Shown here piece after piece: positions 28,605 through 31,716 of a DNA stretch of 64,000 bases (its first letter is position 1; each line of letters starts with the position of its first letter). The stretch lies in NCBI RefSeq assembly GCF_055900595.2, contig NZ_CM148325.1; one strand, 5' to 3'. The notes beneath the pieces are model-generated. The model searched no databases. It saw only the letters and a list, made by a program, of their open reading frames with translations, and was not told the origin of the DNA. The position numbers were made by a program, and so were the translations under genes.

Positions 28605-28626
28605 AAACATAGCAAAGGCTATGTTT
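28605..28626 (+). promoter_or_regulatory. MntR operator upstream of mntH
   Basis: Perfect palindrome AAACATAGC-AAAG-GCTATGTTT ending 13 nt before the mntH ATG. Confidence 0.6.
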
Positions 28627-28629
28627 TAG

Positions 28630-29877
<1,248 letters not shown>

Positions 29878-29906
29878 TTCAACTGGCGTCGTACCAGGCA
29901 TCACTG

Positions 29907-29995
29907 GCGGATGCGGCGTAAAACGCCTTATCCGCCCTACGCGTTAAAGAGCCGGTTTGTAGGCCTGATAAGACGCGCTAGCGTCGCATCAGGCA
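29907..29995. repeat. BIME-like pair of REP elements downstream of mntH
   Basis: ggcggatgcggcgtaaaacgccttatccgccctac and gtaggcctgataagacgcgctagcgtcgcatcaggca. Confidence 0.55.
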
Positions 29996-30018
29996 TTGTG
30001 CTCCAGTGGCGAATGTGT

Positions 30019-30345
30019 TTAATGGCGATGCCCATGTCCGCGGCCCTTTCCGCGATGATCATCACGATCGCGCCAGCCTTCACGATAGCCACGCTCATAG
30101 GCTTTACGCTTATCCCAGCCACGGTGGTAGCCATTATCATGACGCCACCAGCGGTTCTTACGCCATTCATAATTGCGATGCCAGTAGTCACGGTCGCGCC
30201 AGTGACCACCGTCCCAGTAATTACCGTAATGATCGCGATCGCCAATTTGTAATTTGATTGATGGCAGTAGGGTGATTTCACCTGCGTTTGCCGCAAGCGG
30301 GGTAAATGCCATCAGGGCGGCCGCCAGAAACAGTGACCTGAACAT
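30019..30345 (-). CDS. ypeC: Periplasmic small protein YpeC (DUF2502), Arg/Asp/His/Trp-rich
   Basis: 108 aa with signal peptide [21 protein letters not shown] and low-complexity RD/WR/H-rich C-terminal half. Confidence 0.85.
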
Positions 30346-30459
30346 TGTTATTCTCCTTCACGATCGAAGCCGTCAGCGGCCTGTTAACGCAATATTACGG
30401 GGAGGTAAAGCCCCGTATCATCGCCATAACTCTTAAATCATAAAGGAGAGCATTTTTTG

Positions 30460-31716
30460 CTAAACGTTATCGTGGGGTGGCTGTTGCTTCGGACGATTGA
30501 CCATCATCATCGGCTTACCGGCTAATAACAGCCATGCAGGAAGCATGACGATACAGAGCAGCGGTAGCAATGTGGTGTTAGGGACAACAACCGCAGCCAT
30601 AAATAGACTTAACCAGCCATCGCGTGTTACCACCAGCACGATGCCGAGAATAGCGCAGGAAACGGTTATTGCCGCCGGGACAGCGGGAACGTGCTCATGT
30701 AGCATCAATCCTAATGCCACGCCGACAAACACTGCCGGGAAGATTCGCCCACCGCGAAAGCCGCTGGCGGCAGCAACCACGAGAGCGGCAAGTTTAATCA
30801 CTGCCAGCAAAAAGTAATCGCTGGTGCTGAAAGCCTGATTTGCCACCATCTGCTGCATCTCATCCAGCCCTTTAAATAGCGAAACCGGTCCAGCAATAAC
30901 CCCCAGAATACCGAGAATAAATCCGCCCACTCCCAGCATTAGCACCGGATTTTTAATCTGATGCATCATCGCGTGCAACCGTGGCAGACACCATACGGCA
31001 ACCATCCCTGCTGCGATGGCAATCGCCGCCACAATTGCACCGCTGAGAATATCGGTCATCTCCATCTGCCCATAATGCGCAATGGGCAGTGAAAAATGAG
31101 GATGGAAAAATAATCCGGTAGTAAGTGCACCAGCTGCTGCGGCCATTAACGGCGCAAAGAGACGGTCCCATAGCGGAACCTCATTACTGCCATTTAAGGT
31201 TTGCGAAAATATCAACGCCGCCGCAACAGGTGTGCCAAACAGCGCGCCGATGGTTCCGGCAGAGGCTAAAATAGTCCACTCCATTCGGTTGACGCGCGGT
31301 AACAGACGAGCGCCAATGGCGACGGCAAGGGCGATATTGACGGTCATGATCGGATGTTCCGGCCCCAGGCTGACGCCGCCAGCAAGACCGAGAATTAATG
31401 CTACGATAAGTCCTGGTAGCGCAGAGGGCGGAACGGGTGCGCCGATCAGCGGTTCACAGGCGGGGTCTGGTCCAGCATGCCCCTGGCTGAAACGGATAAC
31501 CAACCCCACCGCAATACCCGTTAGCGTTAATATGGCGATGATCCAGAAAGGTGAATCCTGGGCTATTCCCAGAGTTCCCGGCAGTCGTTGCCAGAGCAGA
31601 GTCTGTAATACCGAGGCGATTTTCATCACCACAATCAGAATAAGACTGGACGCAATCCCAATTGCCACGGCGGGGAGTGATAATAACAACATGGTTCTGG
31701 CTCGCGGATGGAGCAT
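30460..31716 (-). CDS. yfeO: Putative ClC-like ion channel YfeO
   Basis: 418-aa polytopic membrane protein with G/A-rich helices typical of voltage-gated chloride channel family. Confidence 0.9.

What the first reader, a model, noticed from the sequence alone, without database searches (positions are those of the whole stretch)
30019..30345. YpeC: secreted, highly repetitive Arg/Asp/His/Trp-rich small protein beside mntH
After the signal peptide, the mature YpeC is dominated by RD, WR, HR and GH repeats (for example [42 protein letters not shown]...GHGHRH). This composition suggests metal or nucleic-acid binding in the periplasm. It sits between the Mn/Fe importer mntH and the channel yfeO, and the function is unknown.
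Basis: inference. Interest (0 to 1): 0.3.

Follow-up and report, generated by a model that had tools for sequence, protein, structure and literature searches.

The report
YpeC: envelope-stress periplasmic protein, function unknown
This is the known E. coli gene ypeC, a small exported protein made mostly of Arg, Asp, His, Trp, Tyr and Gly; published data show that cell-envelope and antibiotic stress regulators switch it on, nothing found here ties it to manganese or iron, and its biochemical job is still unknown.

Summary
The ORF at 30019-30345 (minus strand, 108 aa) is real. The odd composition is confirmed, but the protein is not truly repetitive. It has a signal peptide, a conserved Trp/Tyr-rich core (IGDRDxxGxYWDGxxWRDxxWW) that AlphaFold2 predicts confidently and that matches no solved fold, a second segment conserved among YpeC orthologues, and a variable Gly/Arg/His tail.

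The link to mntH looks like inherited gene order. The two genes are convergent. The MntR box lies only in the mntH promoter. Family members outside the conserved glk-nupC block have no Nramp neighbour.

ypeC has its own promoter, conserved across genera, with the published MarA/SoxS marbox. Published transcriptomes show strong Rcs-dependent induction (42-60-fold up with a LolCDE inhibitor, 24-fold down in an rcsB mutant). The paralogue yaaX and a Serratia homologue are also Rcs-induced.

Best reading: a periplasmic envelope-stress effector whose core binds an envelope component. The His tail could bind metal or respond to pH, but this is untested. The gene is already catalogued and interest is modest.

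The parts
30019..30345 (-). ypeC coding sequence (108 codons plus TAA stop)
   Evidence: ORF list; RefSeq annotation; Pfam DUF2502 E=3e-24; purifying selection with dN/dS 0.01-0.17
30283..30345 (-). Signal peptide, residues 1-21 ([21 protein letters not shown]), with predicted SPase I cleavage after A-N-A
   Evidence: Read from the sequence. Ala21 is invariant or nearly invariant in alignments A1-A3. There is no lipobox Cys. Cleavage is inferred, not shown.
30136..30282 (-). DUF2502 core, residues 22-70: a short hydrophobic strand region followed by IGDRDxxGxYWDGxxWRDxxWW. This is the family-defining, confidently predicted mini-domain.
   Evidence: Invariant P28, G35, G41, Y43, W44, W49 and near-invariant D38, D45, G46, W55. 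AF2 pLDDT is 83-94 for residues 31-70 in two runs. dN/dS is 0.01-0.17.
30055..30135 (-). Segment specific to the YpeC subfamily, residues 71-97 ([27 protein letters not shown]). It is conserved in Enterobacteriaceae orthologues but predicted with low confidence.
   Evidence: dN/dS is 0.02-0.05 for residues 71-108; per-column conservation; pLDDT below 50; not conserved in distant family members
30022..30054 (-). Variable Gly/Arg/His C-terminal tail, residues 98-108 ([11 protein letters not shown])
   Evidence: Length and sequence vary between genera but the tail always ends His-rich
30353..30357 (-). Shine-Dalgarno AGGAG inside the highly conserved GATCGTGAAGGAGAA block
30368..30381 (-). Conserved stem-loop GGCCG-NNNN-CGGCY, in the 5' UTR if transcription starts after TAATAT
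   Evidence: 92% of cells paired across 20 genera, with one pair showing changes on both sides. Its position relative to the transcription start is inferred.
30392..30397 (-). Candidate -10 hexamer TAATAT. The candidate -35 is ATGATA at 30416-30421, with an 18-nt spacer.
   Evidence: Nearly invariant across genera. The strict consensus scan found no promoter, so this is an inference. No transcription start data were available.
30398..30415 (-). Conserved GC-rich hairpin CGGGGCTTTACCTCCCCG immediately upstream of TAATAT
   Evidence: Four of six pairs show changes on both sides; 0 of 500 shuffles reach the observed covariation score. Its role is unknown. It may be a remnant or weak terminator of the upstream gene, or a promoter-spacer element.
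30428..30439 (-). Conserved block GATTTA(A/G)GAGTT just upstream of the candidate -35. It contains a TN(G/A)GA RcsB half-site.
   Evidence: Conserved in nearly all of 27 orthologous promoters. The full RcsB box TN(G/A)GAN4TC(T/C)NA is absent at up to 1 mismatch. RcsB binding is not shown.
30450..30464 (+). Marbox GCATTTTTTGCTAAA (MarA/SoxS site). It points backward relative to ypeC and overlaps the yfeO stop codon (30460-30462).
   Evidence: Exact match in the window. It is identical to the sites bound by MarA in E. coli (PMC5684230) and by SoxS in Salmonella (PMC10268841). It is conserved at -119..-105 from the ATG across genera.

Best explanation
ypeC encodes a small Sec-exported periplasmic protein that belongs to the envelope-stress and antibiotic-stress response, not to Mn/Fe homeostasis.

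Regulation. The gene is transcribed from its own promoter. That promoter carries a conserved, backward-oriented marbox bound by MarA and SoxS. Expression depends strongly on the Rcs phosphorelay.

Architecture. After signal-peptide cleavage the roughly 11-kDa mature protein has three parts:
- a compact Trp/Tyr/Asp/Arg-rich mini-domain (the DUF2502 core, residues about 22-70);
- a second segment conserved among YpeC orthologues (residues 71-97);
- a flexible Gly/Arg/His tail.

Proposed mechanism (inferred, not shown). The aromatic and charged core docks on a conserved envelope component, most plausibly an anionic glycan or lipid such as LPS core, peptidoglycan, periplasmic glucans or capsule intermediates. 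The cationic tail ending in His adds binding that depends on pH or divalent metal. Together these help stabilise or protect a damaged envelope.

What is shown: gene identity, family membership, conservation pattern, promoter conservation, and regulation (from the literature). What is inferred: periplasmic location, the fold, the ligand, and the protective role.
For: Identity and family.

Regulation:
- The marbox GCATTTTTTGCTAAA at 30450-30464 is the site listed for MarA ChIP-seq, marked '+++' in that table, and ypeC is named among SoxS ChIP-exo targets (PMC5684230).
- The same site is a SoxS ChIP-seq target in Salmonella (PMC10268841).
- ypeC rises 42-60-fold with a LolCDE inhibitor, alongside wza, bdm, ycfJ and spy (PMC5105897).
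- ypeC falls 24-fold when rcsB is disrupted (PMC5343319).
- The paralogue yaaX is listed in the RcsB regulon (PMC2731931 and PMC3599342).
- The promoter of a Serratia DUF2502 gene rises several log10 in an rcsB-dependent way (PMC8470065).

Promoter: the marbox, the GATTTARGAGTT block, TAATAT and the SD block are conserved across genera even though the upstream gene differs (yfeO in Escherichia, gpr elsewhere).

Protein:
- The invariant residues are G, P, Y, W and D.
- AF2 pLDDT is 83-94 for residues 31-70.
- Purifying selection acts on the whole mature protein.
- The composition (W, Y, H, R, D, N) is the set typically enriched at carbohydrate-binding sites. This rests on general knowledge, not on a test here.

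Distribution: the family is essentially confined to Enterobacterales, the order that has Rcs, plus a few Chromobacteriaceae.
Against: - No ligand, phenotype or localisation experiment was found in the searchable literature. As late as 2025 ypeC is still listed as an 'Uncharacterized protein'.
- Net positive charge is not conserved across the family. Charge after the motif ranges from -7 to +8 in distant members. This weakens a simple 'polycation binds polyanion' model.
- The canonical RcsB box is absent from the E. coli promoter, so Rcs control could be indirect.
- The fold rests on AF2 alone, with overall pTM 0.41-0.42, and has no structural analogue to lend a function.
- A few homologues occur in Deefgea and Jeongeupia, outside Enterobacterales.
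Confidence: 0.4

Rival explanations
1. YpeC is mainly a periplasmic buffer or chaperone for transition metals (Zn, Ni, Cu). It binds them through its C-terminal His cluster and scattered His/Asp residues, and is produced when the envelope is stressed. This would be analogous in operation to ZraP.
For: - His is concentrated at the extreme C-terminus: 36% of the last 12 residues against 12% of the mid-tail, and 74 of 86 members have at least 3 His there.
- Orthologues keep His rather than swapping it for Lys or Arg, for example GHGHRH, GHKHHH and GHGHHH.
- Many distant members end in HxH/HD runs.
- One Pantoea member carries the database name 'Zinc ABC transporter substrate-binding protein'. This is probably an annotation transfer and is weak evidence.
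- From memory: zinc is a reported stimulus of the Rcs system, and ZraP and Spy are stress-induced periplasmic proteins linked to Zn/Cu.
Against: - The family-defining core has no invariant His or Cys.
- The tail is the least conserved part in length and sequence.
- 11 of 26 distant members lack a His-rich end.
- No metal-responsive regulation of ypeC was found in the literature searched.
- No gene neighbour is consistently metal-related outside the inherited block.
- There is no similarity to LTXXQ (CpxP/Spy/ZraP) or any other Pfam metal family.
Confidence: 0.25
2. This is the first reader's idea: YpeC works with MntH in Mn/Fe acquisition, for example by capturing Mn2+ or Fe2+ in the periplasm and handing it to the importer.
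For: - The ypeC-mntH adjacency holds in about 70 of 80 loci across many Enterobacteriaceae genera. It also holds in Chimaeribacter (Yersiniaceae), and in Pantoea (Erwiniaceae) with one inserted gene.
- The protein is rich in His and Asp.
- From memory: mntH is induced by oxidative stress through OxyR. ypeC is a SoxS target. Both genes therefore respond to oxidants.
Against: - The genes are convergent, so there is no operon.
- The MntR box lies only in the mntH promoter, and no Fur-box match is found.
- The adjacency is part of a whole conserved block, glk-(yfeO)-(ipdC-gpr)-ypeC-mntH-nupC, so it is explained by vertical inheritance.
- Every family member found outside that block lacks an Nramp neighbour.
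- Several Citrobacter loci have about 5 kb inserted between the two genes.
- His-rich tails usually favour Zn, Ni or Cu over Mn2+ (general knowledge).
Confidence: 0.05
3. YpeC is a protective, largely disordered hydrophilic protein (a hydrophilin or ATP-independent holdase). It shields periplasmic proteins or membranes during osmotic, desiccation or acid stress without binding any specific ligand.
For: - GRAVY is -2.1 and Gly is 15%. This meets the usual hydrophilin definition, which is recalled from memory.
- Residues 71-108 are predicted with pLDDT below 50.
- ypeC is induced together with stress genes such as osmB, osmY, yjbJ and spy.
- It is mildly induced by rapid acid shift.
- It is listed among genes responding to many different stressors.
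Against: - A generic protective polymer would not need invariant Gly, Tyr and Trp positions or a confidently predicted compact core.
- dN/dS of 0.01-0.05 over nearly the whole mature protein points to specific contacts.
Confidence: 0.15
4. YpeC binds nucleic acid (extracellular or incoming DNA or RNA) in the periplasm through its Arg/Gly/aromatic residues.
For: - The composition is Arg/Gly/Tyr/Trp-rich and the pI is about 10.
- ypeC is among 13 genes induced in both E. coli and Klebsiella recipients during RP4 conjugation (bioRxiv 10.1101/2025.06.12.659224).
Against: - No nucleic-acid-binding domain is detected.
- Some family members are net acidic.
- The induction during conjugation fits envelope stress equally well.
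- No gene for DNA uptake or processing is a neighbour in any locus examined.
Confidence: 0.03

Closest known systems
YaaX (E. coli b0005) and other DUF2502 (PF10697) proteins
   Same: They share the family: a signal peptide, a hydrophobic strand, the GDRDxxGxYWDGxxWRDxxWW core and a His-rich tail. yaaX and a Serratia member are also induced by Rcs.
   Different: YaaX-type genes sit at thrC|yaaX|yaaA, not beside mntH. Their tails are Pro/His/Asp-rich and can be net acidic. The segment [25 protein letters not shown] is specific to YpeC orthologues. No family member has a known function.
ZraP / Spy / CpxP (LTXXQ periplasmic stress proteins)
   Same: They resemble the proposed role: small periplasmic proteins induced by envelope stress. 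ZraP has Gly/His-rich ends and binds Zn (from memory). spy is co-induced with ypeC by LolCDE inhibition.
   Different: There is no sequence relationship: only DUF2502 is found in Pfam scans of 25 members. The predicted secondary structure is mostly short strands plus one helix rather than an all-helical hairpin. No chaperone or feedback activity has been tested for YpeC.
Ivy and MliC/PliC (Rcs-induced periplasmic lysozyme inhibitors)
   Same: They are small exported proteins of the Rcs regulon that protect the envelope by binding one specific target (from memory; ivy is listed as Rcs-induced in PMC3599342).
   Different: No homology or fold match was found. YpeC is strongly basic, which makes binding to basic lysozyme unlikely.
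His-rich segments of periplasmic zinc proteins (ZnuA loop, ZinT N-terminus)
   Same: They have clustered HxH/GH residues in an exported protein. One database even names a Pantoea DUF2502 protein as a zinc ABC substrate-binding protein.
   Different: YpeC has no ZnuA or ZinT domain. The resemblance is compositional only, and metal binding by YpeC is untested.
Trp/Arg-rich antimicrobial peptides (indolicidin, tritrpticin)
   Same: They share a composition dominated by Trp and Arg, which in those peptides drives binding to anionic membranes and LPS (from memory).
   Different: YpeC is a conserved, chromosomally encoded 87-residue protein with many Asp residues and a predicted folded core. It is retained in the producer's own periplasm. 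No membrane activity has been tested.

Membership tests
DUF2502 (Pfam PF10697) | Match to the family HMM above the gathering score | tested here: met
   85.4 bits against a cut-off of 27, E=3.1e-24, covering profile positions 1-90 of 90. All 25 aligned relatives also match.
DUF2502 (Pfam PF10697) | N-terminal signal peptide followed by the conserved core IGDRDxxGxYWDGxxWRDxxWW | tested here: met
   Invariant P28, G35, G41, Y43, W44 and W49 in a 25-sequence alignment reaching down to 29% identity. YpeC carries every one of them.
MarA/SoxS/Rob regulon | A marbox upstream of the gene that is bound by the activators | tested here: met
   GCATTTTTTGCTAAA lies at 30450-30464 and is conserved across genera. 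Binding comes from the literature: MarA ChIP-seq plus cited SoxS ChIP-exo (PMC5684230), and SoxS ChIP-seq in Salmonella (PMC10268841). Transcriptional activation of ypeC by these factors was not seen in the text read.
MarA/SoxS/Rob regulon | Class I geometry: a backward-oriented marbox about 52-72 bp upstream of the transcription start | tested here: inconclusive
   The orientation is backward. The marbox centre is about 72 bp upstream of a start inferred 7 nt after TAATAT. No experimental transcription start was available.
Rcs regulon | RcsB-dependent expression | not testable with these tools
   Literature only: 24-fold down in an rcsB-disrupted O157 isolate (PMC5343319), and 42-60-fold up on LolCDE inhibition together with classical Rcs genes (PMC5105897).
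Rcs regulon | Canonical RcsB box TN(G/A)GAN4TC(T/C)NA in the promoter (PMC7913699) | tested here: not met
   At the conserved GATTTARGAGTT position, only 2 of the 27 orthologous promoters carry a box there at up to 1 mismatch, and the Escherichia promoters carry none anywhere in 180 bp (3 other promoters have hits at unrelated positions). Only the left half-site is conserved, in GATTTARGAGTT. Control could be indirect or through a non-canonical or heteromeric site.
MntR/Fur metal-homeostasis regulon (functional partner of MntH) | An MntR or Fur operator at the ypeC promoter, or co-transcription with mntH | tested here: not met
   The MntR palindrome lies only at 28606-28625 in the mntH promoter. 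No match to the Fur consensus within 3 mismatches occurs in the window. The genes are convergent.
MntR/Fur metal-homeostasis regulon (functional partner of MntH) | Adjacency to an Nramp gene that recurs independently of general synteny | tested here: not met
   Adjacency is seen only inside the inherited glk..nupC block. It is absent at five loci outside that block.
LTXXQ periplasmic stress proteins (CpxP/Spy/ZraP) | LTXXQ-family HMM match and an all-helical fold | tested here: not met
   No Pfam family other than DUF2502 matches at E up to 10 (apart from two chance hits at E>1, one member each). The predicted secondary structure is mainly short strands with one helix.
WXXGXW repeat proteins (Pfam PF12779) | HMM match and the W-x-x-G-x-W register | tested here: not met
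   None of the 25 members scanned gives a hit. The invariant Gly in DUF2502 is at W+2 (YWDGxxW), not W+3.
Tandem-repeat proteins | Periodic repeats at the DNA or protein level beyond what composition explains | tested here: not met
   TRF finds none. Self-alignment is not above shuffles and dipeptide counts roughly follow composition. Some distant homologues do carry two copies of the core motif, but YpeC has one.
Hydrophilins | Gly above 6% and mean hydrophilicity above 1 (definition recalled from memory) | tested here: met
   The mature protein has 14.9% Gly and GRAVY -2.12. This is a compositional class, not a homologous family.

The most novel reading that the evidence does not exclude
DUF2502 proteins (YpeC, YaaX and relatives) may be a new class of periplasmic module built on a previously undescribed Trp-rich mini-fold. 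The module would recognise an envelope component specific to Enterobacterales, or the Rcs sensing machinery itself (RcsF/IgaA). They could then act as the missing periplasmic feedback modulator or adaptor of the Rcs response, in the way CpxP serves Cpx and ZraP serves ZraSR.
Probability: 0.1. Interest if true: 0.65.

Novelty: already known. Interest (0 to 1): 0.3.

Why it matters
ypeC is among the most strongly Rcs-induced genes reported in the papers read here. It is present in essentially every E. coli genome and has a conserved MarA/SoxS site, yet neither it nor any other DUF2502 protein has a known activity. Finding its ligand would fill a gap in how enteric bacteria repair or protect a damaged envelope during antibiotic, lipoprotein-trafficking or host-derived stress. 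It would also add a new small fold to the known periplasmic proteins. For this scan, the useful result is negative. The position next to mntH is inherited gene order, not evidence of a role in manganese or iron handling, and the 'repeats' are compositional bias around one conserved motif.

Tried and rejected
- **Internal repeats.** TRF on the DNA, N-half against C-half alignment with shuffles, and dipeptide shuffles all showed nothing beyond composition.
- **Other protein families.** NCBIfam gave no hit. Pfam at E up to 10 on 25 members gave only DUF2502. This rejects the WXXGXW (PF12779) and LTXXQ leads, both of which came from memory.
- **EF-hand or DxDxDG-like Ca site in GDRDxxG.** Rejected by inspection: position 5 of the putative loop is Y, R, S or H in the family.
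- **Domain fusions that might hint at function.** The apparent hits to only part of YpeC are frameshifted or chimeric gene calls.
- **Fur and MntR operators near ypeC.** None found.
- **Canonical RcsB box.** None in E. coli.
- **Rfam.** Only sub-threshold REP-type (naRNA4) matches, between mntH and ypeC.
- **Strict sigma-70 scan.** No hit. The promoter hexamers reported are inferred from conservation.
- **Promoters of distant orthologues and of yaaX.** No recognisable marbox or shared block by eye.
- **Literature search by b-number and locus tags.** Unproductive.
- **First genome scan with the diverse alignment.** It was repeated with closer sequences, so the 80 loci returned are all close Enterobacteriaceae orthologues. 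More distant contexts had to be fetched one at a time.
Full report
**1. The observation**

The window has an ATG-initiated ORF at 30019..30345 on the minus strand. A megablast of 29800-30500 against complete E. coli genomes matches 5424 of 5426 genomes. RefSeq annotates the features there as mntH, 'ypeC: DUF2502 domain-containing protein YpeC' and yfeO. Pfam assigns the protein to DUF2502 (PF10697, 85 bits against a 27-bit cut-off, E=3e-24). NCBIfam has no model for it. The local gene order is nupC(-), mntH(+), ypeC(-), yfeO(-), glk(+).

The composition is as extreme as described. After the predicted signal peptide ([21 protein letters not shown]|GE), the 87-residue mature protein is R 18%, G 15%, D 11.5%, H 10%, W 9% and Y 8%, with pI about 10 and GRAVY -2.1. 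Its last 73 residues use only nine residue types plus one Ala. R/D/H/W/Y/G make up 59% of the precursor. Among 79 ORFs of at least 100 aa in the window, the next-highest value is 37% and the median is 23%.

The description 'highly repetitive' does not hold:
- No DNA tandem repeat is found.
- The two halves of the protein align no better than shuffled sequence.
- The RD, WR, HR and GH dipeptide counts are roughly what the composition predicts.

**2. Anatomy of the protein and its family**

The family is small. An exhaustive HMMER pass over 1.84 billion representative proteins found only 85 clusters at E up to 1e-3. The word-indexed search found 278 clusters at 90% identity, all carrying PF10697. 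Named members come from Enterobacteriaceae, Yersiniaceae (Chimaeribacter, Rouxiella), Erwiniaceae (Pantoea) and Pectobacteriaceae (Brenneria). A few come from Chromobacteriaceae (Deefgea, Jeongeupia).

An alignment of 25 intact members, reaching down to 29% identity, has these conserved positions:
- invariant: P28, G35, G41, Y43, W44, W49;
- nearly invariant: D38, D45, G46, W55.

What defines the family is a short hydrophobic strand region followed by IGDRDxxGxYWDGxxWRDxxWW. Some distant members carry this motif twice. No invariant position is His or Cys.

AlphaFold2 was run with two different alignments. Both runs give pLDDT 83-94 for residues 31-70. The predicted elements are short strands, a helix at 52-58 and a hairpin at 59-68. 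Both runs give pLDDT below 50 beyond residue 73. The model has no counterpart among solved structures:
- Foldseek gave nothing better than E=6.
- A profile search of PDB sequences was empty.

The C-terminal half is not a freely drifting tail. Within Enterobacteriaceae, residues 71-108 have dN/dS 0.02-0.05, as low as the core. The segment [25 protein letters not shown] is nearly unchanged across genera. Only the last ten or so residues vary in length and sequence, and they stay rich in Gly, Arg and His. Across 86 intact family members, His makes up 36% of the last 12 residues against 12% of the rest of the tail, and 74 of 86 have at least three His there. Net charge is positive in YpeC orthologues. 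In distant members it ranges from clearly negative to strongly positive.

The mature protein therefore has three parts: a family-wide mini-domain, a segment conserved among YpeC orthologues, and a variable tail ending in His.

**3. The mntH neighbourhood**

The adjacency is conserved well outside Escherichia. About 70 of 80 orthologous loci from many Enterobacteriaceae genera have mntH within a few hundred bases downstream of ypeC, always convergent. So do Chimaeribacter and an unnamed metagenomic relative. Pantoea has one gene inserted between the two.

The conserved unit, however, is the whole block glk-(yfeO)-(ipdC-gpr)-ypeC-mntH-nupC (PMC5770404). Shared ancestry is enough to explain it. 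Family members outside that block have no Nramp neighbour:
- the YaaX-type gene lies between thrC and yaaA;
- one glk-adjacent gene is followed by unrelated genes;
- the Deefgea, Jeongeupia and Brenneria genes lie among unrelated transporters and enzymes.

Several Citrobacter loci have about 5 kb inserted between ypeC and mntH. The exact MntR palindrome AACATAGCAAAGGCTATGTT occurs once in the window, at 28606-28625 in the mntH promoter. The Fur consensus finds no match within three mismatches. Convergent orientation rules out a shared promoter.

**4. Regulation**

ypeC has its own promoter, and the promoter travels with the gene. In Escherichia the upstream gene is yfeO. In most other genera it is the aldo-keto reductase gpr. 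The 120 bp upstream of the ATG are nevertheless conserved. The conserved elements are:
- TTTAGCAAAAA(A/G)TGC at -119..-105;
- a GATTTA(A/G)GAGTT block;
- a GC-rich hairpin;
- TAATAT;
- a second small hairpin;
- GATCGTGAAGGAGAA, which contains the Shine-Dalgarno sequence.

The first element, read on the plus strand as GCATTTTTTGCTAAA (30450-30464), is letter for letter the marbox reported upstream of ypeC in three studies. It appears in the E. coli MarA ChIP-seq table, where it is marked '+++'. That paper also cites ypeC as a SoxS ChIP-exo target (PMC5684230). The Salmonella SoxS ChIP-seq reports the same site (PMC10268841). The marbox points backward relative to ypeC. It lies about 72 bp upstream of a start site inferred from TAATAT, which fits a class I arrangement. 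The start site is an inference, and a strict consensus scan found no promoter.

The published Rcs evidence is strong:
- ypeC rises 42-60-fold after LolCDE inhibition, alongside wza, wzb, bdm, ycfJ and spy (PMC5105897).
- ypeC falls 24-fold in an O157 isolate whose rcsB is disrupted (PMC5343319).
- The paralogue yaaX is in the RcsB regulon and is induced by colicin M and by the LolCDE inhibitor (PMC2731931, PMC3599342, PMC5105897).
- The promoter of a Serratia DUF2502 gene rises several log10 in a gumB (igaA-like) mutant, and only if rcsB is intact (PMC8470065).

Rcs induction thus looks like a family trait.

The canonical RcsB box TN(G/A)GAN4TC(T/C)NA (PMC7913699) is nevertheless absent from the E. 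coli promoter at up to one mismatch. Only its left half is conserved. Direct binding is therefore unproven.

ypeC also appears in several broader lists:
- genes responding to multiple stressors (PMC9501238);
- a 'core perturbome', where it is still listed as an uncharacterised protein (PMC12389024);
- genes mildly induced by rapid acid shift (PMC2270276);
- genes induced in recipients during RP4 conjugation in both E. coli and Klebsiella (bioRxiv 10.1101/2025.06.12.659224).

None of the ypeC papers read reported regulation by Mn or Fe, and none of them was a metal-limitation study.

**5. Most likely mechanism**

Shown or well supported:
- the gene, its family and the conservation pattern;
- an autonomous, conserved promoter carrying a marbox that MarA and SoxS bind;
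- strong Rcs-dependent expression.

Inferred:
- export and cleavage after Ala21;
- the compact fold;
- everything about the ligand.

I commit to the following reading. YpeC is a periplasmic envelope-stress effector. Its invariant Gly/Tyr/Trp/Asp core binds a conserved envelope component. The residue set (W, Y, H, R, D, N) is the one typically enriched at carbohydrate-binding sites, so an anionic glycan or lipid is the most plausible target. Candidates are LPS core, peptidoglycan, periplasmic glucans and capsule intermediates. The tail would add binding that depends on pH or metal. My confidence in this specific mechanism is about 0.4. My confidence that the gene belongs to the Rcs and Mar/Sox stress response rather than to Mn/Fe homeostasis is about 0.85.

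The main rival, at about 0.25, is that metal buffering by the His tail (Zn, Ni or Cu rather than Mn or Fe) is the primary function. His at the tail is retained rather than exchanged for Lys or Arg, which argues for a His-specific property, either metal binding or titration near neutral pH. But the tail is the least conserved part of the protein, and 11 of 26 distant members lack it.

A generic protective hydrophilin role (about 0.15) fits the composition and the co-induced genes. It fits poorly with invariant aromatic positions and very low dN/dS. Partnership with MntH (about 0.05) and nucleic-acid binding (about 0.03) have little support.

**6. Comparison with known systems**

YpeC is a bona fide member of DUF2502, and it is the E. 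coli reference protein of that family. In operation it most resembles small stress-induced periplasmic proteins such as ZraP, Spy and CpxP, or the Rcs-induced inhibitors Ivy and MliC. It shares neither sequence family nor predicted fold with any of them. The resemblance of YWDGxxW to WXXGXW repeats came from memory and failed the test: there is no PF12779 hit, and the Gly sits in a different register.

**7. Novelty and verdict**

The gene, its family and its regulators are all on record, so the finding is 'already known' as an object. Its function is still open. This analysis adds five points:
- the three-part architecture;
- the absence of true repeats;
- the predicted mini-fold with no solved-structure analogue;
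- the family-wide His-rich end;
- evidence that the mntH adjacency is inherited synteny, with no supporting regulatory or recurrent-neighbourhood signal.

Interest is modest (0.3). A specialist would not be surprised, but this is a compact and tractable unknown that is strongly induced by envelope stress.

Noticed in passing
window 29856-30033: Two REP-type palindromic elements fill the mntH-ypeC intergenic space. They give sub-threshold matches to Rfam naRNA4 (RF02564; 47 and 41 bits against a gathering score of 59.5). The length of this spacer varies between Escherichia loci: mntH begins 107-201 bp after ypeC.
   Followed up: partly
window 30450-30464 and 30460-30462; loci L002-L080: In Escherichia the yfeO stop codon lies inside the ypeC marbox and yfeO abuts ypeC. 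Most other Enterobacteriaceae have about 3 kb between them, which published synteny (PMC5770404) identifies as ipdC plus gpr. Escherichia appears to have lost that segment right up to the edge of the ypeC promoter.
   Followed up: partly
window 30398-30415: A GC-rich hairpin (CGGGGCTTTACCTCCCCG) lies between the candidate -35 and -10 of ypeC. It is conserved across genera with compensatory changes (4 of 6 pairs change on both sides; 0 of 500 shuffles reach the score). Its role is unknown: it could be a terminator of the upstream gene or a promoter-spacer element.
   Followed up: partly
window 30368-30381: A small stem-loop GGCCG-NNNN-CGGCY, followed by the near-invariant GATCGTGAAGGAGAA, lies in the presumed ypeC 5' UTR. 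It could stabilise the mRNA or be a regulatory target.
   Followed up: partly
window 29911-30296: Long ORFs in other frames overlap ypeC: 29911..30252 (+) 113 aa, 29937..30296 (-) 119 aa and 30006..30257 (+) 83 aa. They look like a by-product of the biased codon content. Many metagenomic 'homologues' are frameshifted chimeras that switch into these frames, with tails such as ...IIMTTK.
   Followed up: partly
L001; L054: A 398-bp contig labelled Rhizobium wenxiniae is 100% identical to E. coli ypeC. A contig labelled Chryseobacterium sp. 18061 carries the full enterobacterial glk-yfeO-ypeC-mntH-nupC block. Both are probably contaminated or mislabelled assemblies.
   Followed up: no
P0213 (Pantoea stewartii cluster): One source names a 116-aa DUF2502 protein 'Zinc ABC transporter substrate-binding protein'. 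This is probably an annotation transferred on the strength of the His-rich low-complexity region.
   Followed up: no
window 28606-28625: A perfect MntR-type palindrome AACATAGCAAAGGCTATGTT lies just upstream of the mntH start codon (28639). It is the only such site in the 64-kb window.
   Followed up: yes
P0160, P0164, P0170, P0173, P0198, P0199 / L091: Some distant DUF2502 proteins (Brenneria, Jeongeupia, metagenomic) contain two tandem copies of the G(D/E)RDxxGxYWDGxxWRDxxWW motif. This suggests the roughly 25-residue motif is the evolutionary unit.
   Followed up: partly
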